From Candidatus Moraniibacteriota bacterium (GTDB lineage: Bacteria; Patescibacteriota; Minisyncoccia; Moranbacterales; DUUL01): DNA of 64,000 nucleotides. Location of the stretch: contig JBFHFF010000004.1 in NCBI GenBank assembly GCA_041583775.1, forward strand, positions 66,428 through 130,427. Reading direction: 5' to 3'. The first letter of the stretch is position 1; each line of letters begins with the position of its first letter. Both the position numbers and the translations under genes were made by a program. Below are positions 4,958 to 55,935 of the stretch, one piece after another. Below the pieces are notes generated by a model. That model was not told the DNA's origin, searched no databases, and worked only from the letters and a program-made list of their open reading frames with translations.

Positions 4958-6496
4958 CTAATCTATTAACTTTGTTTCAGTTAAGCCAAAAACAATCTGT
5001 CTTTGTTTTAGGTTAAGTATTGCACCGTATAGAACCCAGAAAACTAATGCCGCAGGTCCAAAAAGCAAAGTGTTGCTTGTTAAACCCATAAGCAAAAATT
5101 CAAAATAAATCGCAATAATCATTATCAGCCAAATTCTCTTTGAGCCATCCGATCTAATATAAACACCTCTTAGATCTTTAAAATATTGATACAAAGCACC
5201 CAAAAAAACAGTAATCCCTATCAAACCAAAGTTATTCCAAATAACTAAATATGAATTATGTATTCTCTCTTCACTTCCAGATTGATTTGCCTTATCCACC
5301 TTCCAGCCGCTTCCCCAAATAAAGTTTTGTTTAATTTGCTCAAAACCAGAAAACCAATTTTGCAAACCTTCTCTTTGTTCAATGCTTACTGGATGAAAAG
5401 ATGGAAGAATCAATGTTAAGGTGATCAAAAAAACTGCCATCGACGAAATCAACCGGGCTTTTCTTAAAAGAATTCCCACTATAAACAAGCCAATCCCCAA
5501 AGCTATCAATGCAATATATGAAAAAGTCAGCATAAGAGCAACGCCTTGGATTAACAGTAAAAAAAATAACATTGTCTTACTTCTTAGAAATTTTGAAATA
5601 TTCTCACGAACAAAACTTTCTTTTATTCGTTGGAATAACCTTTCTCTTAAAAAGTTAGCCCTCTCGATTGAATATGCAGAATCAAAAAGTTTAACTTTTT
5701 CCTCAATTATACTTAATGGCCTGATCTTTTTTGATCGTTTTTTAGCGTTTAAAATCATTCCGATTGTAATAGTAATCGATATTAAAAGTAGTGGCGCAAG
5801 CGCATTAGCACCAACCCTTAAAATAAATCCATCACCCAAAAAACCATTCACTTGATATGTAACGGAAGAAAAAATTGGACTCTGAACCTTTCCGGCTGAA
5901 ATACCAAGTCCACTAGAAGATTGCCAAGATATTAAAAAAGCAATAATTCCAAAAATCGAATGTGCAACACCTGCTGTCACTAATAGACTAAAAAATCTTT
6001 TTAAACGCTTTTGTGTTTGAAAGAAATAGTGAAAAGTTGTTAAAATTAACCAATAAAAAAGAATCGCAAAACTAAGAGACCAAACGCTACTATCTATTTC
6101 AACACTAAAATATTTCCCAAAAGAAACAATGCTCAATCCTGAGATTAGGAGCAATAAAAAATAAAAAGTTAGTTTATTCAAAGAAACTTTTACATTTTCA
6201 AAAACAATTGAGATTAGCCCAATAAAGGCAAGGAGCGTTAACAATAAATCCGAAATAGTTGTGGTGTTTGGAGTTATTTTTGTTGAAGGAAACATTATTA
6301 CAATCAAAAAAAGAAAGAGCCACCCCCTGGAAAAACTTTTCTGAAAAACCGCAACCGAGATAAATAACAGTAGTGTTGCTGCGGCTAATGTAAAATTCAA
6401 AGTAGTGACTAAAATCAACGCAAAAGCAACAATTCCTGTTGCCAAAGTAATTGCAGTCTCTTTTAAGCTATTTCTAACAAAATTTACTAATTCCAC
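4958..6496 (-). CDS. polytopic membrane protein, O-antigen ligase/polymerase-like (Wzy_C)
   Basis: Many TM helices; HNSYLVIWNNFGLIGITVF matches the Wzy_C H..NxxL..ExG signature. Confidence 0.6.
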   Translation of the reverse strand: MELVNFVRNSLKETAITLATGIVAFALILVTTLNFTLAAATLLLFISVAVFQKSFSRGWLFLFLIVIMFPSTKITPNTTTISDLLLTLLAFIGLISIVFENVKVSLNKLTFYFLLLLISGLSIVSFGKYFSVEIDSSVWSLSFAILFYWLILTTFHYFFQTQKRLKRFFSLLVTAGVAHSIFGIIAFLISWQSSSGLGISAGKVQSPIFSSVTYQVNGFLGDGFILRVGANALAPLLLISITITIGMILNAKKRSKKIRPLSIIEEKVKLFDSAYSIERANFLRERLFQRIKESFVRENISKFLRSKTMLFFLLLIQGVALMLTFSYIALIALGIGLFIVGILLRKARLISSMAVFLITLTLILPSFHPVSIEQREGLQNWFSGFEQIKQNFIWGSGWKVDKANQSGSEERIHNSYLVIWNNFGLIGITVFLGALYQYFKDLRGVYIRSDGSKRIWLIMIIAIYFEFLLMGLTSNTLLFGPAALVFWVLYGAILNLKQRQIVFGLTETKLID

Positions 6497-49559: not shown

Positions 49560-50158
49560 TTATTTCTCAATCACAATAAAATCCCCTTCTTCTAGCGCAT
49601 GAATGGGAAGTGATTTGTCTCCATATTCCTCCAACTCTTTTTTTGCATTTTCCCAATCAATTGGTCCTCTTGGGTCATTATTGCCATAGGTTCCATTGAA
49701 ATGAGGAATAAACTTAATTGGCAGAATTCTCAAACCCTCCAAACAGTCTCTCCAATCACAAGTCCATGAAAAAGTGGTTAGAATACTCGAACCAGCAGAG
49801 CTCGTCGCCACGACTTTTCCTTCAAAAATCTTTTCTAAATCAAATTGATCAAACCAAAATCGCAACACAAATAGTCATCCCCTCCTTGGATAATAATAAT
49901 ATCGTTTTTTTCTGCTTGTTTTTCGAATGTTACTGGAAATGCTAAATCAAAGACTAAGCTATCTGCTTTTCCTGTCAGAGAAGCAAATCTTTCACTATAA
50001 GCTTCAAACCTCGTCTCCCAGCTTTCTCGAGGCTGTGCAAAAAAACAATAGAGAATTCTAATTTCCCCTTCAAAACCAACAAGGATTTCATTCAAAAAAG
50101 CCAACTCCTTCTCGGGATATTTTTTAGCGCCACCCGAATTTAAGATATATTTTGTCAT
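49560..50158 (-). pseudogene. S51 (peptidase E / cyanophycinase-like) peptidase gene split by a single frameshift
   Basis: Upstream ORF ends ...IIIQGGDDYLCCDFGLINLI*; the +1 frame continues LRFWFDQFDLEKIFEGKVVATSSAGS (the S51 SAG nucleophile region) from a GTG. Confidence 0.55.
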
Positions 50159-50210
50159 TTGTATTATAACTATAAATTATAGATGAATTTATTTTAACAA
50201 GGTTATATAG

Positions 50211-50250
50211 AAAAACAAAAAATCCATCGCATATGCGAGGGATTTTTTTA
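50211..50250. terminator. bidirectional intrinsic terminator at the edge of repeat copy 1
   Basis: A-run, atccatcgcatatgcgagggat imperfect palindrome, T7. Confidence 0.55.
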
Positions 50251-50463
50251 TGTGGACCCTAGTAACTTTTCTTGGAACACCTTCTTAAATACCATTGTTG
50301 AGTGGCAACCTACCATCCAAAGGATTAAACAAGGCTTTGTTTAATCGCTTATATAAAGAATTCTGTGCTATATAACATATACACAATAGGATAATGGAAC
50401 ATCTATACGTACAAGGCATTAAAATATGAAGAGATTTCAATAAATAGAAGGTGGTATTTTGAA
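50222..50463. repeat. copy 1 of a ~245-bp diverged direct repeat (att-like element)
   Basis: About 88% identical to 51831..52075 by manual alignment; starts with tatgtggaccctag, which matches the tRNA-Ala 3' end. Confidence 0.8.
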
Positions 50464-50531
50464 AAAAGCGAATGTTCAGGGGGCATCCAAAAAACAATCT
50501 TTATTTAGATCATTTTAAAGGACGCGCACTT

Positions 50532-51101
50532 CTATAAGCCATTTCTTACAAAAGAAAACAGCTCATCTACTGTCTTCTTTTCTATGAACTTACCATACGC
50601 TCCGTACTTATTATTGAATTCTACGAAAAGTTCTTTATAGTTTTTAGAAAAATCTGGAGAAGTTAAATCAGGCCCTTGATCTAAATTTTGAAACATAAAT
50701 TTTCTCATTCTCACAAGACCAGTATATTGCTTCTTTTCATTCTCATTAAAAAGAGTATCAATTAAATAGATTTCATAAGCAACATAAAAAGTAGCTAGAT
50801 TGCAAACGACTTGGTCTGAATTTAAAATATTCAAACCTTTTTTAAAAATCTCGTCCTCTTCTTCGATTAATCTTCTTTTTATGTCATCATCTTCAATTCC
50901 TTCTAAATCTTTTTCAAAATCATATGTTAAGTTAGGGATTGCCCAATTTAAAGCTCGTGCTAGCAGTTGCAACCCAAATTCATCATTCTCTAATTTCTCT
51001 TCTTCTATAAATTTATCAGCGACTCCCATAACTATAGCATCGTGAATGAGATTATTCGCTTTTAAGGCATTTTTAAGCCTATTTTTCTTTAGCCAAAACA
51101 T
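50532..51101 (-). CDS. hypothetical protein (189 aa)
   Basis: ORF between the two repeat copies; no motif I recognise. Confidence 0.5.
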   Translation of the reverse strand: MFWLKKNRLKNALKANNLIHDAIVMGVADKFIEEEKLENDEFGLQLLARALNWAIPNLTYDFEKDLEGIEDDDIKRRLIEEEDEIFKKGLNILNSDQVVCNLATFYVAYEIYLIDTLFNENEKKQYTGLVRMRKFMFQNLDQGPDLTSPDFSKNYKELFVEFNNKYGAYGKFIEKKTVDELFSFVRNGL

Positions 51102-51274
51102 ACTTTTAGTTATTACTGCTTAATATTTTCACCTTCATTTTTTCTCTTTTTCCAAAATTATTGTGAATTCTACATTTTTCCCGTATCTTTTATCTCAAAT
51201 TTACGAGAGGGTTCAAAGCAGGGGCCATTGAACCCACTATAAAACAAAACACCAGACGTTCATTTTTCGATTCC

Positions 51275-51583
51275 CTATCTTAGATGATTTATAGAATCCT
51301 CTATTTCATTAAGCATACTCCTAGTTTCGAAGTCATTATAATCTTTTTTATCTTGTATGGACTTCAACTTATCAGTCAATTCAAAATTTTCATTCAAACT
51401 TTTGATAAGATTGTTCTTTTGAAAGACTTTACTATGATAATACGCCACCAATCCCAACATCCCATAATATGGCAAAGCAACCGCCCAAACAGAGTCAAAT
51501 TCAACAACTGCAAAATAAATCAAAACGGGAACAACAAAAAGAACAACTAAAAAGAATGAATTCCATAAATTCCCTTTTGACAT
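51275..51583 (-). CDS. small two-TM membrane protein with a charged C-terminal tail (holin-like topology)
   Basis: Two hydrophobic helices followed by a K/D/E-rich tail. Confidence 0.5.
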   Translation of the reverse strand: MSKGNLWNSFFLVVLFVVPVLIYFAVVEFDSVWAVALPYYGMLGLVAYYHSKVFQKNNLIKSLNENFELTDKLKSIQDKKDYNDFETRSMLNEIEDSINHLR

Positions 51584-51830
51584 AATAAATCAATTTAACA
51601 ATTAAATAATTAATTCACAAGTTCAACTGCTTCTGCCTTAAACCCTTAAACACTCCATCTCCTTAACATCACCCTCATCTGCCACGTAGCAACGTTTATT
51701 CTATATCAACCCAAAACTCGCTACATTTAAAGTTTACCACCTAAGACTAAATAAGAAAACCTCAGTAAAGCAATATTTTTTCCAATACCCCCTTGCATTC
51801 AAATCCACAACAAACTATTCGTAAACAAAA

Positions 51831-52075
51831 GAATCCCTCGCTGATGCGAAAGATTCCTTTTTGTGTGGACCATAAAGACTTTTATTGTAACACCTTTTTA
51901 AATACCATTATTGAGTGGCAACCTACTGTCAAAAGGGTTAAACAAAGCTTTATTTAATAGCTTATATAAAGAATTCTGTGCTATATAACATACACGCAAT
52001 AAGATAATGGAACATTTATACGTATAATGCGTTAAAATATGAAGAGATTTCAATAAATAGAAGGTGGTATATTGA
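51831..52075. repeat. copy 2 of the ~245-bp direct repeat, with an adjacent terminator hairpin at 51831..51863
   Basis: Manual alignment to copy 1; gaatc...gattc hairpin plus T-run; tgtggaccataaag is a degenerate copy of the tRNA-Ala 3' end. Confidence 0.8.
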
Positions 52076-52235
52076 ACGATGTCCGAACTTTTTTTATTGA
52101 AAAGGAGAAATGTACCGACTCTTTTGCTGTGGCAAATTTAGCTTATTAAAGATATTTAGTTATTTTTGAATATGCCTCATACTCTCATTGCTAGTAAAAA
52201 GCTTGATGAAAGAAGGGCATATCAAAAAATGAAGG

Positions 52236-53204
52236 TTAGTAAGAAAAACTTTCAAAACTTTTTATATCATTTCTTAAATTAGTTTTTCTTGTGATAGCTC
52301 CGTCACTTGCTCTTTCAATAATATTTCCTACAGAAAACTTTCCTAGTTTATTTTTTGTGTAAAGGTTTTTTGCAAAATACAACTCTGCTTCTGGACTCCT
52401 ACCAAAATTATTCGCATTTATAATATGTGTCTCGCAATAAATGATAGCGCTTACTTCTTTAAGCTGATTATTGCAAAAATAATTTGTTGGTATTCGAACT
52501 TTTCTAGCATCTTTTTCAATTTCTATATGTTCCCTAAGCTCATAACCCATCCCATCTGAGGAGCCTCCTCTCATCGGGAATACATCGTTTCCCCTCCCAT
52601 AAACTGTTGCTTCTATTGCACGGCCTCTAAATAGAGTTTCGGTATTATTTCCATTAATAGCGATTAAAAATGGTTCACATTCACTACATACATTACCCAA
52701 ATATTTTTCCCTATACTTTTTGTATTTCTTTGTCAGGGCATTGCTTATCCTTGCTATTCGCGGATCAAGAGCTTTGTAAATATCGCCACTTTTTGGGCTG
52801 TCATCAACTTCCTTATTTTTTCCAGGTGTAGTTATAATAGCTTCAATCCAAATATTTCTTCCATTCACTCTTACCTGTATATCAGGTCCCTTTCCATTGT
52901 TTGGAACCAATTCATAGCCATTATCCATAAGAACTGTTGCTAAATACATTTGCCAAGAAAATGCGTTAAATCCTCTGTTCTTTCTCGAGCGTAGATTCTT
53001 GAGAAAGTTTGGCTCGGCATATTTTTCATATCTCCCCCATAAAGACTCAAGCCATTTTTTCGTCTCTTCCCTACCCTTTCCACAACAAGTAATTATATAA
53101 GTAGAATCAAGACTTGGATTGTCCTTAATGCATTTTTTCAGCTCATCATCAGATGTAATCTGAGCAAAATCGTGAATAAATATTTTTTCGTGTCTACTTT
53201 TCAT
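52236..53204 (-). CDS. hypothetical protein (322 aa), possibly with a PD-(D/E)xK-like nuclease core
   Basis: GPDIQVRVNGRNIWIEAI resembles a PD...E motif, but the Lys is not evident; last gene of a three-gene operon; its start overlaps the upstream stop (ATGA). Confidence 0.5.
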   Translation of the reverse strand: MKSRHEKIFIHDFAQITSDDELKKCIKDNPSLDSTYIITCCGKGREETKKWLESLWGRYEKYAEPNFLKNLRSRKNRGFNAFSWQMYLATVLMDNGYELVPNNGKGPDIQVRVNGRNIWIEAIITTPGKNKEVDDSPKSGDIYKALDPRIARISNALTKKYKKYREKYLGNVCSECEPFLIAINGNNTETLFRGRAIEATVYGRGNDVFPMRGGSSDGMGYELREHIEIEKDARKVRIPTNYFCNNQLKEVSAIIYCETHIINANNFGRSPEAELYFAKNLYTKNKLGKFSVGNIIERASDGAITRKTNLRNDIKSFESFSY

Positions 53205-53581
53205 TGTTTTTTATTAATATTAGCAATAAATTCCTCCAAGACATCTAGCACGGATAAAAATTCTCTTACTCTGCTTAGCTTGTTTATATTCTTCTTGTAT
53301 TCTAATTCATATCTAGCGAGTATAACTCTGTACTCGAAGATATCACTTTCCGAAGGAAATGCAGAAGGAAACATTCTGTAAACGAATTTTAGTAATCTTT
53401 CATTTTCTTCTATTCCCATTTTATGCTTATTCTCATATTCTTTTTCAACAGAATTTTCTTCCCAACCAACAGTCATTCTCCCCATTCCTCTAAAAAAATT
53501 TTTAAAATTTATAAGCTCATTAATTTTATTTTCAGAACTTTCGAAATAAGGGAAAAAAGGAATGTAATCATACCTGACCAA
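53201..53581 (-). CDS. hypothetical protein (126 aa; alternative start at 53485)
   Basis: The long form overlaps the upstream gene by 73 nt; the ATGA overlap with the downstream gene implies translational coupling. Confidence 0.5.
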   Translation of the reverse strand: MVRYDYIPFFPYFESSENKINELINFKNFFRGMGRMTVGWEENSVEKEYENKHKMGIEENERLLKFVYRMFPSAFPSESDIFEYRVILARYELEYKKNINKLSRVREFLSVLDVLEEFIANINKKQ

Positions 53582-54756
53582 GAAATCGGTTCCGTATCTG
53601 AGAACAAGCCATAGAATATTTTACTTAATTTTGGATCATATCCTACATTTCCTGAAATATTGTCCGATATTTTCTGCTCGGACCAAAAAATTACTTCTCT
53701 TAAGGAAACAAATGGTATTCTTCTCTTAGACTCCAAATTTTTAGCTTTTATTTTCCATTCCTTTGGATATGCTTTCCAAAACATCCACTCACTACTTATC
53801 TTATCTGAATTTGAAAACAAAATAGAGAGAAAAGAAATGAAAAAATTTTCAATATATTCAATATCATCAGAGTGTTTATCAAGATGAATTTTTACCAACC
53901 GCAAATATCGTCCATAACTTTTATCAAGAGATTGGATTTCTATATATTCCAGTACGGGATAAATTTCATAATCAAATGGAAACCATTTTTCGCTTTCCCC
54001 ATACCTTTCGGCTTTATAATACCATTCAAGTATTTCTTCTAAAGGAGACTTTTTTCCTGAATATATCAAGAAATCCTTATCTCTGTTCTCAATATTTCTA
54101 GAAAAATTGCCAAGTAAACTATTCAGAAGAGGTGTACCCTCTCTTTTATCAATCAAAATATTTATATTTTTTGAAAATATCTCAAAAAATTCCAACTCGC
54201 TATTTCTGTCATTTTCTTTAACTTTCCATACCGAAGTCCAAGCAGAAACATATTCTCTATCCTCTCTTATTTTTTTCAGAAATCCGTACCTATGATAATA
54301 TGGATCTTTTATCCAAATAATAAAATCGAGAATTATTTTAATTAATATACCTATTCCAACTAGCCAAATTACAAGTAATACATTTCTCATAACAAAACCA
54401 CTACCAAACCAAAAAAATGATGGCAAATATGACAACAAAAGAGTTATCAATATCAACCTGACATCAAATACTCTGTTTATAATTACTATCAAATCTAATT
54501 CTGAATAGTTTATATTTTCATTGTTTCTCTTAGTTCTAAAATAATCAGACAGCACCGCTATGGCCAAAGGAATCAATATTGTAAAGAGGGCTATGTTCAC
54601 ATTATGAAAATAATTTCCTAATTCCATAACTTGATTAGCAGTGTTGATACTTAAATATAAAAAAATAAACAAGAATATCACTTCTAAAATAAAAAATATC
54701 ACTTCTTTTTGGGAAAGTTTTTTTTGAAATGCTTTTCTCAACATTTTGTTTAACAT
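53509..54756 (-). CDS. hypothetical membrane protein (415 aa; 4 N-terminal TM helices plus a ~270-aa cytoplasmic domain)
   Basis: Hydrophobic N-terminus; no motif I recognise. Confidence 0.55.
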   Translation of the reverse strand: MLNKMLRKAFQKKLSQKEVIFFILEVIFLFIFLYLSINTANQVMELGNYFHNVNIALFTILIPLAIAVLSDYFRTKRNNENINYSELDLIVIINRVFDVRLILITLLLSYLPSFFWFGSGFVMRNVLLVIWLVGIGILIKIILDFIIWIKDPYYHRYGFLKKIREDREYVSAWTSVWKVKENDRNSELEFFEIFSKNINILIDKREGTPLLNSLLGNFSRNIENRDKDFLIYSGKKSPLEEILEWYYKAERYGESEKWFPFDYEIYPVLEYIEIQSLDKSYGRYLRLVKIHLDKHSDDIEYIENFFISFLSILFSNSDKISSEWMFWKAYPKEWKIKAKNLESKRRIPFVSLREVIFWSEQKISDNISGNVGYDPKLSKIFYGLFSDTEPISWSGMITFLFSLISKVLKIKLMSL

Positions 54757-55199
54757 AACAAATATTTCTTAATTTAGTTAGGATATTTATTTTAAACAGT
54801 TTTCCATAATAACTGAATCTAGGGGGAAAATCAATAATTTATATACAAAAAATACTTGCTAATAAACTTTTAAAAATACGAAAGATATGGTGTGTGGTGT
54901 TAGAATATTTTATTTTATAATTCCAGATTCAATTTACTTGCAGTTATTTTAAGAATCCTTCTTTCTCTGTTTCGAATTATTTCTTTGTCTCTTATTTTCT
55001 CTTTGATATTTTCATATCGTGTGGGATGAAAATACATCGATTAGTCCTCAATTTTTCAGCGCCTACTCGTCTTAAGGAATATTGCAACACAACATCAGGG
55101 TTTCCTGAGTGCCAACCTAAGGCACGCTTAATTACGTTAAAGCCATCTAAATCTTTTCTTATATTAAAACTTTTAATTAGGGACCCACCTCCTTGATGA

Positions 55200-55682
55200 T
55201 GCATAAATATTAACTTTCCAGATACCATAGAAAAATGGAATGCTACTGCAAGGGAGTTAGCACTAAAAGAAAAAGAAGTTGAAAATTACATCGACCTGCT
55301 GGCAAAAACCGCCAGTGATGTTGTTAGAAAGAAATATGAGCTTAGAGTCGAAGCCCTTGAGGAAGAGATTTCGGCATTAAAAAAACAGCCCTCGGTTGCT
55401 AAGCACCTGAACTGTGAAGACGCTATTTCAGAAGTATTGCATTTTCTTGGAACACCTGCTGATTATTGGCAAAAAACCAATCTGGAAGGCAAATTTATGG
55501 TACACAACCTTATATTCACAGAGAATCCAATCTTTGACTTGCAAAATGGATTTGGAACACCTAAAACTTCCCTTCCCTTCGCAATAAAAGACGCCATTCA
55601 CAATGACGTCTCTTCTATGGTGGACCCTAGGGGATTCGAACTCCTGACCTCCTCAGTGCAAATGAGGCGCTCTACCAACTGA
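55200..55682 (+). pseudogene. start-less remnant of a larger gene, tentatively a recombinase C-terminal coiled-coil tail, reading into tRNA-Ala
   Basis: Open frame begins right after a TGA at 55197-55199 with no ATG; heptad-like ALKEKEVENYIDLL...ELRVEALEEEISALKK; runs antisense across the tRNA-Ala 3' end. Confidence 0.3.
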
Positions 55683-55693
55683 GCTAAGGGCCC
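55618..55693 (-). tRNA. tRNA-Ala (TGC) with encoded CCA
   Basis: Cloverleaf by eye; anticodon loop TTTGCAC; G3-U70 alanine identity pair; 3' ...AGGGTCC-A-CCA. Confidence 0.85.
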
Positions 55694-55858: not shown

Positions 55859-55935
55859 CTGTGGGCAATCCAGGAATTGAACCTGGGACCTCGTCATTAT
55901 CAGTGACGCGCTCTAACCATCTGAGCTAATCGCCC
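55859..55935 (-). tRNA. tRNA-Ile (GAT)
   Basis: Cloverleaf by eye; anticodon loop CTGATAA. Confidence 0.8.

What the first reader, a model, noticed from the sequence alone, without database searches (positions are those of the whole stretch)
50249..50263. Partial copies of the tRNA-Ala 3' end (att-like cores) at the start of each repeat
The plus strand at 50250-50262 (atgtggaccctag) matches the tRNA-Ala 3' end and its immediate flank at 55615-55628 (atggtggaccctag). The only difference is a 1-nt deletion in the CCA, and the match extends beyond the mature tRNA end. Copy 2 carries a more degenerate version, tgtggaccataaag, at 51864-51877. On the minus strand each core is followed directly by a terminator hairpin, as a tRNA 3' end would be. 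Duplicated tRNA 3' segments are the classic signature of attL/attR sites made by integrases that target tRNA genes.
Basis: seen in the sequence. Interest (0 to 1): 0.65.

Follow-up and report, generated by a model that had tools for sequence, protein, structure and literature searches.

The report
Decayed serine-recombinase islands at tRNA-Ala
The two short tRNA-like "cores" are real attachment-site scars: each starts the left end of a small, now crippled mobile island that a large serine recombinase inserted into the 3' end of the tRNA-Ala gene of a candidate-phyla-radiation bacterium, and that left end still carries the last 30 codons of the recombinase gene, which integration split off.

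Summary
The sequences are as described; the tRNA-side coordinates are 2 nt off (true 55617-55630). The shared exact word is 11 nt (GTGGACCCTAG), which is weak evidence alone (expected 0.18 per window; blastn-short E about 4). Context supports the att reading.

- The + strand frame 55200-55679 is the C-terminal ~145 aa of a large serine recombinase (LSR; best hit 1e-40) and reads into the tRNA-Ala 3' end. The catalytic N-terminus is gone.
- In 23 of 24 Patescibacteria genome loci, homologous LSR genes read into TGGTGGA(C/G)C of tRNA-Ala or tmRNA.
- The repeat is homologous to the far (left) end of intact elements in L017, L018 and L036. A model built from those three alone finds both window copies (E 2e-6 and 5e-6; next best E 5).
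- In frame with the core codons GTG-GAC, the repeat encodes a conserved 30-aa LSR tail (VDPSNFSWNTFLNTIVEWQ...). The same tail is fused to LSRs that have no adjacent tRNA (L045, L046). So the LSR ORF spans attP and integration splits it.

The window therefore holds two tandem, decayed islands, 50252-51864 and 51865-55617. One carries a PD-T7-5-like defence gene.

The recombination core is about 7 nt. The extra CCTAG is element sequence that mimics the tRNA. The shared hairpin left of each core remains unexplained.

The parts
55618..55693 (-). tRNA-Ala(TGC): the integration target, intact (right junction, attR side)
   Evidence: ARAGORN; Rfam tRNA 68.3 bits.
55620..55630 (+). Core at the right junction, GTGGACCCTAG. 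This is the antisense of the acceptor 3' strand, the discriminator base and the first C of CCA.
   Evidence: Exact 11-mer shared with 50252-50262. GTGGAC is shared by both junctions in L017, L018 and L036.
55227..55616 (+). Remnant of a large serine recombinase gene (C-terminal ~130-145 aa). The open frame 55200-55679 continues into the tRNA.
   Evidence: Exhaustive HMMER: 268 hits, best 1.2e-40. Full-length relatives carry Resolvase + Recombinase + Zn_ribbon_recom. tblastn finds only 55227-55676 in the whole window. A C-terminal profile scores 1e-47 here and nothing else in the window is significant.
55590..55610 (-). Hairpin inside the recombinase coding end, followed by a T-run on the minus strand. 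It is the likely terminator of the rebuilt tRNA-Ala.
   Evidence: Read from the sequence. The stem is kept with changes on both sides in L015, L017 and L018 (A5). Its function is inferred.
51858..52076 (+). Repeat copy 2: left-end module of the tRNA-proximal island (island A, 51865-55617)
   Evidence: 89% identical to copy 1. A model from the external left ends hits 51865-52014 at E 2.2e-6.
51865..51957 (+). Core GTGGACC (51865-51871), then 30 codons and a stop: the split-off recombinase tail VDHKDFYCNTFLNTIIEWQPTVKRVKQSFI*
   Evidence: Translation; gap-free alignment with the other tails.
51828..51862 (-). Hairpin plus T-run directly after core 2 on the minus strand (left flank F2)
   Evidence: Fold. 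About 77% identical to F1. Origin unresolved.
50245..50463 (+). Repeat copy 1: left-end module of the distal island (island B, 50252-51864)
   Evidence: A model from the external left ends hits 50265-50401 at E 4.6e-6.
50252..50344 (+). Core GTGGACCCTAG (50252-50262), then 30 codons and a stop: the split-off recombinase tail VDPSNFSWNTFLNTIVEWQPTIQRIKQGFV*
   Evidence: Translation. A profile built only from database tails finds this ORF as the top hit in the six-frame window, E 3.6e-4, next best 0.6.
50217..50248 (-). Hairpin plus T-run directly after core 1 on the minus strand (left flank F1)
   Evidence: Fold; alignments.
52236..53204 (-). Cargo of island A: 322-aa protein resembling the candidate anti-phage proteins PD-T7-5 and PD-T7-1
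   Evidence: PADLOC 2.5e-18 and 5.2e-14. No Pfam family.
53201..55228 (-). Further cargo ORFs of island A (126 aa; 415 aa, probably membrane; 78 aa), all without family assignment
50532..51583 (-). Cargo ORFs of island B (189 aa and 102 aa), without family assignment

Best explanation
The segment 50252-55617 is a tandem pair of decayed integrative islands inserted at the 3' end of the tRNA-Ala(TGC) gene by large serine recombinases (LSRs). This LSR family is specific for the tRNA-Ala-like acceptor end GGTCCACCA, which tmRNA shares.

In the free, circular form (inferred), the LSR gene runs across attP. The codons Val-Asp (GTG GAC) are the core, and about 30 further codons encode a conserved tail. 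Recombination between this core and the identical bases of the tRNA gene inserts the element.

After insertion, the tRNA keeps its body and receives only its last few bases, its trailer and a terminator hairpin from the element. That hairpin lies inside the recombinase coding end. The LSR ORF now runs into tRNA antisense. The last 30 codons are left at the far end of the island, behind a copy of the core.

Each 'repeat' in the window is such a far end: core, split-off tail codons, and about 120 nt of conserved element sequence. Two of them in tandem mean two islands, B (50252-51864) and A (51865-55617).

Island A keeps only the C-terminal ~145 residues of its recombinase, and island B keeps none. 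Both are therefore immobile unless another LSR acts in trans.

Shown: the homologies, the reading frames, the junction anatomy and the target preference. Inferred: the strand-exchange chemistry, the exact crossover dinucleotide, the order of insertions, and the terminator function.
For: - LSR remnant at 55227-55676 reading into the tRNA.
- Tails of homologues: at least 48 of 79 read as tRNA antisense and 8 carry the conserved WN tail.
- Genome loci: all 24 are Patescibacteria. In 23 the LSR reads into TGGTGGA(C/G)C of tRNA-Ala or tmRNA.
- L017 and L018 have intact 521-aa LSRs with all three LSR domains. They share both flanks but carry different cargo. Their left junction is the native spacer, then GGTGGAC, then a conserved module (A4).
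- The window repeats align with the left ends of L017, L018 and L036 (A6). nhmmer gives significant hits in both directions: 2e-6 and 5e-6 into the window, 5e-8 and 8e-6 out of it.
- In-frame tails are conserved without gaps. A profile from database tails alone finds copy 1 at 3.6e-4.
- attP-type continuous ORFs exist: L046 (intact LSR, core inside the ORF, no tRNA on the contig) and L045.
- L045 is a second example of a tandem, decayed array.
- No known RNA family matches the repeat.
Against: - No excised circle, empty site or strain variant could be found. All public contigs of this population break at the repeats.
- The repeat has no exact relatives in JGI metagenomes or IMG/VR.
- The two copies remain about 77% alike for about 45 nt to the left of the core. 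Two independent insertions next to a native flank would not predict this. No recombinase remnant is detectable left of copy 2.
- Copy 2 has Cys in place of the conserved Trp of the tail and scores poorly against the tail profile.
- Left ends could be located in only 3 of the 24 genome loci.
Confidence: 0.85

Rival explanations
1. There is only one island. The second copy arose by local duplication of a whole attL junction (hairpin + core + left-end module), or by recombination between sister copies. It was not a second insertion.
For: Similarity between the copies covers the ~45-nt left flank as well as the module. Both copies share GGTCCACA rather than GGTCCACCA. No recombinase remnant is detectable left of copy 2.
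Against: The sequences between and after the copies (50464-51827 versus 52077-53440) are unrelated, so no simple tandem duplication is visible. L045 shows that serial arrays with an LSR remnant reading through an internal core do occur in this family. The Dehalococcoides serine-recombinase islands at ssrA also form tandem arrays by accretion (PMC3146451).
Confidence: 0.25
2. The tRNA-like cores are chance matches. The repeat would then be an unrelated small RNA or 3'-UTR element on the minus strand, ending in its own terminator.
For: The 11-nt match alone is near chance. Each copy lies downstream of a minus-strand ORF and ends in a hairpin. Folding z-scores are -3.1 and -3.4.
Against: There is no Rfam match. 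The two predicted folds differ from each other. The conserved part is an open + strand frame homologous to LSR tails. The repeat is homologous to the left ends of LSR elements, exactly at their core.
Confidence: 0.03
3. This is a classic tyrosine-integrase tRNA island, with the cores being displaced tRNA fragments.
For: This is the commonest mechanism for islands at tRNA genes (Islander, PMC4383910, listed).
Against: No integrase-family Pfam hit in any ORF from 49560 to 55228. The only recombinase relic is a serine recombinase. There is no long tRNA duplication here or in 19 related loci.
Confidence: 0.02

Closest known systems
Dehalococcoides ssrA genomic islands with the serine recombinase DsiB (McMurdie et al. 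2011, PMC3146451)
   Same: A large (~540 aa) serine recombinase gene sits next to the target gene. The target is a tRNA-like 3' end (tmRNA), and six relatives of the window's LSR also sit at tmRNA. Islands accumulate in tandem downstream of the target. Many islands have lost their integration module. Cargo is variable.
   Different: There the direct repeat is 20 bp and the inferred insertion point is in the T-loop. Here the shared core is 7-11 nt at the acceptor/CCA end. That module has a second small recombinase (DsiA) and other genes, which are not seen here. Whether DsiB is orthologous to this family was not tested. In the parts of that paper I read, no recombinase ORF spanning attP is mentioned.
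Tyrosine-integrase islands in tRNA/tmRNA genes (Islander/TIGER definition, PMC4383910, PMC7192596)
   Same: The integration site is at the 3' end of a t(m)RNA gene. The gene is restored by element sequence. The integrase gene lies at one end next to att. A copy of the core marks the other end.
   Different: The recombinase class differs (serine, not tyrosine). The displaced fragment is only a few bases, too short for Islander-type detection (no repeat of 11 nt or more in 19 loci).
Phage large serine integrases (A118, TP901-1 and similar)
   Same: The domain architecture is the same: Resolvase + Recombinase + zinc ribbon + coiled coil. Intact relatives match the TP901-1 catalytic domain (8.6e-10) and the A118 integrase C-terminal domains (2.5e-4) among solved structures.
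   Different: From general knowledge, those enzymes usually target protein-coding or intergenic sites. This family has an extra conserved C-terminal region (FLGTP...GFGTP..LPF) and a tail encoded across attP. No relatives were found in IMG/VR viral contigs.
phiRSM resolvase-like serine recombinase integrating at a tRNA gene (Askora et al. 2011; cited as ref. 22 in PMC7192596; details from memory)
   Same: A serine recombinase uses the 3' end of a tRNA gene as attB.
   Different: That enzyme is a small resolvase-type protein of a filamentous phage, and it targets tRNA-Ser. It was not compared here.
Integration-dependent gene truncation in mycobacteriophage BPs (attP inside a gene; from memory, not checked here)
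   Same: attP lies inside an ORF, so integration changes the C-terminus of a phage protein.
   Different: There the interrupted gene is the repressor and the integrase is a tyrosine recombinase. Here the interrupted gene is the serine recombinase itself.

Membership tests
Large serine recombinase (LSR) integrative element | Recombinase with an N-terminal Resolvase catalytic domain plus Recombinase and zinc-ribbon domains | tested here: not met
   The window copy retains only the C-terminal ~145 aa, with no catalytic, Recombinase or zinc-ribbon part. Its full-length homologues have all three domains (P0007, P0019, P0027; the L017 and L018 LSRs). The window therefore holds a relic of such an element, not a functional member.
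Large serine recombinase (LSR) integrative element | Recombinase gene adjacent to an att site at one end of the element | tested here: met
   The remnant ends at and reads into the core at 55620. The same holds in 23 of 24 genome loci.
Large serine recombinase (LSR) integrative element | Only a short identical core shared by attL and attR, with no long target duplication | tested here: met
   Shared cores: 7 nt (L017, L018, window copy 2), 9 nt (L036), 11 nt (window copy 1). No repeat of 11 nt or more in 19 loci.
Large serine recombinase (LSR) integrative element | Existence of an attP form (P-core-P') that rejoins the two element ends | tested here: met
   Continuous ORFs run from the LSR through the core into the WN tail in L046 (intact LSR, no tRNA on the contig) and in L045. 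Further database proteins show the same (P0027, P0032, P0052, P0084, P0095, P0106). Circularity itself was not shown.
Large serine recombinase (LSR) integrative element | Catalysed integration and excision at a central dinucleotide | not testable with these tools
   This needs a recombination assay or read-level junction evidence.
t(m)RNA-gene genomic island (Islander sense) | Intact tRNA/tmRNA gene at one end | tested here: met
   tRNA-Ala 55618-55693, 68.3 bits.
t(m)RNA-gene genomic island (Islander sense) | Displaced fragment of the same gene at the other end | tested here: inconclusive
   Only 7-11 nt are shared. Part of that (CCTAG) is element sequence that also occurs in L036, where the tRNA differs.
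t(m)RNA-gene genomic island (Islander sense) | Tyrosine integrase encoded in the island | tested here: not met
   No such Pfam hit in ORFs from 49560 to 55228. The relic is a serine recombinase.
Dehalococcoides-type ssrA-GI | 20-bp ssrA direct repeats, T-loop insertion point, and a DsiB/DsiA integration module | tested here: not met
   The core is 7-11 nt at the acceptor/CCA end. No second small recombinase ORF was seen next to the LSR in the window, L017 or L018. The defining features are taken from PMC3146451.
Dehalococcoides-type ssrA-GI | Tandem accretion of islands downstream of the target, some without an integrase | tested here: met
   Two left-end modules lie in tandem in the window. 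A similar array occurs in L045.
Known non-coding RNA family (Rfam) | Match to a curated covariance model | tested here: not met
   No match over the repeats reaches its family's gathering score. The permissive search lists only sub-threshold matches over the terminator hairpins, for example Leu_leader 27.4 bits against a cut-off of 50.

The most novel reading that the evidence does not exclude
In this LSR family the recombinase ORF deliberately spans attP. Integration would then swap a conserved ~30-residue C-terminal tail (VDxxxxxWNxLxxxIxxW...) for tRNA-antisense residues, and excision would restore it. The recombinase would exist in two isoforms that report the integrated or free state, and these could control directionality or stability without a separate directionality factor. 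At the same time, the coding end doubles as the terminator of the rebuilt tRNA. The family's attB (the tRNA-Ala/tmRNA acceptor end) is nearly universal, so it could serve as an integration tool for Patescibacteria and possibly beyond.
Probability: 0.3. Interest if true: 0.7.

Novelty: new variant of a known kind. Interest (0 to 1): 0.5.

Why it matters
It turns an anonymous repeat pair into a mapped integration hot spot in an uncultured Patescibacteria genome. The boundaries are exact, there is a defence-type cargo gene (PD-T7-5-like), and decay has a clear direction.

More broadly, it exposes a family of large serine recombinases that target the tRNA-Ala/tmRNA acceptor end across Patescibacteria, and probably other bacteria, judging from the tRNA-antisense tails of many homologues. 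The gene in this family is split by its own integration.

Serine integrases are prized genome-engineering tools. A clade with a conserved, essential and near-universal attB, in a group of bacteria with few genetic tools, would be worth testing. For annotation, it explains odd 'C-terminal extensions' of recombinases that are really tRNA antisense. It also shows that island finders based on displaced tRNA fragments would miss these elements.

Tried and rejected
- **Known RNA family.** Rfam at gathering and permissive thresholds gave nothing real over the repeats. The two copies fold differently.
- **Small protein on the minus strand** (70-aa and 51-aa ORFs). Most differences between the copies change the amino acid, so this was rejected.
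- **Word-indexed protein search with the 159-aa frame.** No hits. The exhaustive HMMER search was needed.
- **PDB search with the fragment.** Nothing found.
- **Pfam and NCBIfam on the fragment.** Nothing relevant.
- **Repeat in public DNA.** The 16-mer in IMG/VR gave only chance hits. Two metagenome scans with conserved 21-22-mers gave 0 hits.
- **LSR relatives in IMG/VR.** None.
- **Empty site or strain variants via exact-protein look-ups of flanking genes.** Only the same population was found, and its contigs break at the repeats.
- **Long displaced tRNA fragments in 19 related loci.** None of 11 nt or more.
- **A second recombinase remnant left of copy 2 or copy 1.** The profile search gave only a non-significant hint at 51744-51839 (E 0.05-0.1 in a restricted search). 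DNA alignment z-scores were about 0 for copy 2's left flank and 2.5 (8 of 300 shuffles as good) for copy 1's 91-nt flank.
- **F1/F2-like hairpin sequence in other loci.** None.
- **Shared cargo between the window islands and L017/L018.** None.
- **First attempt at search for related loci with a 13-sequence alignment.** It failed because the alignment was too divergent. A 4-sequence alignment worked.
- **Dyad symmetry of a reconstructed attP, to fix the crossover dinucleotide.** Checked by eye only and not convincing, so it is not used.

Full report
**1. The observation**

The strings are in the sequence as described. Copy 1 reads atgtggaccctag at 50250-50262 and copy 2 reads tgtggaccataaag at 51864-51877. 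The tRNA-side string lies at 55617-55630, two bases to the right of the coordinates given. tRNA-Ala(tgc) is a minus-strand gene at 55618-55693, and tRNA-Ile lies just upstream of it at 55861-55935.

The longest exact word shared with the tRNA end is 11 nt, GTGGACCCTAG. With a 1-nt gap the match is 13 of 14. By itself this is weak. With up to one mismatch the word occurs only at these two places, against 0.18 expected, and blastn-short gives E about 4.

The repeat is real: 50245-50463 versus 51858-52076 at 89% identity. Its similarity continues about 45 nt leftwards through two hairpins, 50217-50248 and 51828-51862.

**2. A recombinase relic at the tRNA**

No ORF between 49560 and 55228 matches an integrase family, and no known RNA family matches the repeat.

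The + strand frame 55200-55679 is open, is coiled-coil-like, and runs into the tRNA gene. A word-indexed search found nothing. An exhaustive HMMER search found 268 relatives, the best at 1.2e-40. Full-length relatives are 520-540 aa and carry the Resolvase, Recombinase and Zn_ribbon_recom domains, so they are large serine recombinases (LSRs). The window fragment matches their last ~125 residues.

tblastn shows that only 55227-55676 of the window is LSR-like. A C-terminal profile finds nothing else in the window. The gene has therefore lost its first ~380 codons.

**3. The family targets tRNA-Ala and tmRNA**

Many homologues end in peptides such as ...MVELAGVEPAS or ...VDRTGLEPATSSVQMRRST. These are translations of reverse-complemented tRNA 3' halves. 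At least 48 of 79 tails are of this kind.

A scan of one genome per species returned 24 loci, all from Patescibacteria: Moraniibacteriota, Berkelbacteria, Saccharibacteria and others. In 18 of them ARAGORN calls a tRNA-Ala (tgc, ggc or cgc) or a tmRNA gene tail-to-tail within about 75 nt of the LSR match. Reading the DNA shows TGGTGGA(C/G)C after the LSR in 23 of 24; the remaining contig ends too early to tell.

The closest relatives are L015, L017 and L018, at about 61-63% amino-acid identity. All three sit on tRNA-Ala(tgc).

**4. What the repeat is**

L017 and L018 have intact 521-aa LSRs. The two loci share the right chromosomal flank and, about 4.6-4.9 kb to the left, a tRNA-Ile gene with its spacer. 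The cargo between these is different.

Their left junction reads: native spacer, then GGTGGAC, then a conserved block (A4). A pattern search found the same arrangement in L036, 7.7 kb from its LSR, and in window copy 1.

The five left ends align from the core for about 170 nt (A6). A DNA profile built only from the three external left ends finds the two window copies as its top hits (E 2.2e-6 and 4.6e-6; the next hit has E 5). The reverse profile finds L018 (5e-8) and L017 (8e-6) at exactly those positions. The repeat is therefore the left-end module of this element family, and the 'core' is the junction.

**5. Why the left end is conserved: it is the end of the recombinase gene**

A minority of homologues end not in tRNA antisense but in a conserved tail, (L/V)VDxxxx(S/N)WNx(L/F)xxx(I/V)xx(E/D)W.

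Translating each left end in frame with the core codons GTG GAC gives the same kind of tail, each followed by a stop:
- window copy 1: VDPSNFSWNTFLNTIVEWQPTIQRIKQGFV*
- window copy 2: VDHKDFYCNTFLNTIIEWQPTVKRVKQSFI*
- L017: VDKEQFPWNHLLITIMQWRPIVKRIRENFIS*
- L018: VDKEQFPWNHFLITINEWWPIVKRIKQNFV*
- L036: VDPTNNFWNTFVDEVIKAYPIITRLGVTI*

A profile made only from database tails picks the copy 1 ORF as the best hit in the six-frame window (E 3.6e-4; next 0.6).

L046 carries an intact 522-aa LSR whose ORF contains CTGGTGGAC and continues into such a tail, with no tRNA on the contig. L045 shows a truncated LSR reading through a core into a tail, and a second core plus tail 1.26 kb upstream.

So in the un-integrated (attP) configuration the LSR ORF spans the attachment site. 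Integration leaves its last 30 codons at the other end of the island.

**6. The core**

The bases identical at both junctions are:
- GGTGGAC in L017 and L018
- TGGTGGACC in L036
- GTGGACC in window copy 2
- GTGGACCCTAG in window copy 1

L036's left end reads GTGGACCCTACTAAT although its tRNA reads GTGGACCGTGCC. So CCCTA(G) belongs to the element, where it supplies the Pro codon and the next one. In the window it merely happens to equal the local acceptor stem.

The part attributable to recombination is thus about 7 nt. This fits a serine recombinase. It also explains why no long displaced tRNA fragments are seen in 19 loci.

**7. Anatomy in the window**

- Island A runs from 51865 to 55617. 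It holds the left-end module, a PD-T7-5/PD-T7-1-like gene (PADLOC 2.5e-18), three unassigned ORFs and the LSR relic.
- Island B runs from 50252 to 51864. It holds the left-end module and two unassigned ORFs, with no recombinase.
- The hairpin 55590-55610 lies inside the LSR coding end. It is followed by a T-run on the tRNA strand and keeps its stem through changes on both sides in L015, L017 and L018 (A5). It probably terminates the rebuilt tRNA (inference).
- GC content gives no island signal.

**8. What remains unexplained**

The two copies are still about 77% alike for about 45 nt to the left of the core. Under serial integration, this flank would be the 3' end (P arm and terminator) of an older element. 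However, no LSR similarity is detectable there and no similar flank occurs elsewhere. A duplication of an entire junction is the alternative.

The 16-nt identity between the FLGTP codons of the relic (55442-55457) and the FSWNT codons of copy 1 (50267-50282) lies in different reading frames. It may be chance (E 0.004).

No circle, empty site or strain variant could be recovered.

**9. Comparison and verdict**

The closest described system is the family of Dehalococcoides ssrA islands. These have a serine recombinase next to the target, tandem accretion, and islands that lack integrases. They differ in having 20-bp repeats and a T-loop insertion point (PMC3146451).

Classic tDNA islands use tyrosine integrases (PMC4383910; PMC7192596). 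Full-text searches found no description of tRNA-Ala/tmRNA-targeting LSRs in Patescibacteria, or of an LSR ORF spanning attP. The library is incomplete, so this is not proof of novelty.

As a genome feature it is a decayed island pair and moderately interesting. The family-level design, in which the recombinase gene is split by its own integration and the target is the tRNA-Ala-like acceptor end, is the part worth following up.

Noticed in passing
window 49560-50158 (minus strand): The Peptidase_S51-like gene just left of copy 1 is split into two overlapping ORFs (49835-50158 and 49560-49868). Only the second gives a weak Pfam hit. The same split is present in independent Logan contigs L041-L043. 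This could be a frameshifted pseudogene or a recoding site.
   Followed up: partly
window 52236-53204 (minus strand): The 322-aa cargo protein of the tRNA-proximal island matches the candidate anti-phage proteins PD-T7-5 (2.5e-18) and PD-T7-1 (5.2e-14) in PADLOC. It has no Pfam family.
   Followed up: partly
window 55442-55457 and 50267-50282: An identical 16-mer, TTTTCTTGGAACACCT, encodes F-L-G-T-P in the recombinase relic and F-S-W-N-T, in another reading frame, in the split-off tail of copy 1. Window-wide E is 0.004. A weaker version of the resemblance recurs between the tail region and the FLGTP region in several loci.
   Followed up: partly
window 50375-50400 and 51988-52013; L017 ~5590-5610; L018 ~965-985; L036 ~2860-2885: A conserved block, ACACAATA(G/A)GATAATGGAAC, lies about 130 nt right of the core in all left-end modules, beyond the tail stop codon. 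In L018 its ATG starts a Terminase_2-like ORF (Pfam 8e-9). In the window it starts only 6-11 codons. It may be a promoter or start region of the first cargo gene.
   Followed up: partly
L045 1-1790 (Logan SRR25887066): This is a 1.26-kb mini-element. A core plus tail sits at 364-480, followed by an N-terminally truncated LSR (816-1718) that reads through a second core (about 1620) into a second tail. It is a second, independent example of a tandem, decayed array. Its first tail shares the 21-mer ACCATTATTGAGTGGCAACCT with window copy 2.
   Followed up: yes
L035 10345-10440 and 13325-13400: The LSR reads into only a 3' half of tRNA-Ala(cgc). An intact tRNA-Ala(cgc) lies 3 kb further on. This suggests that another element, inserted deeper in the tRNA, later separated them.
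   Followed up: no
L015 2116-2125; L017 10332-10341; L018 5455-5464: The tRNA-Ala rebuilt by these elements ends ...GGTCCACCC, so CCA is not encoded. The displaced native end at the left junction of L017 and L018 reads GTCCACCA. The element therefore changes whether CCA is genome-encoded.
   Followed up: partly
L017 5295-5369 and 10332-10408; L018 648-726 and 5455-5531: In these genomes the native gene order is tRNA-Ala then tRNA-Ile, and the element separates the pair by about 4.7-5.0 kb. In the window the order is tRNA-Ile then tRNA-Ala, and the island lies after the pair. Neither pair is flanked by rRNA genes.
   Followed up: partly
window 55200-55679 and database proteins P0001, P0005-P0007, P0010 and others: Gene callers extend these recombinase ORFs through the antisense of tRNA genes. 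This produces spurious C-terminal extensions (...GVEPAS..., ...TSSVQMRRST) in public protein sets. The tails are a handy marker of the integrated state.
   Followed up: yes
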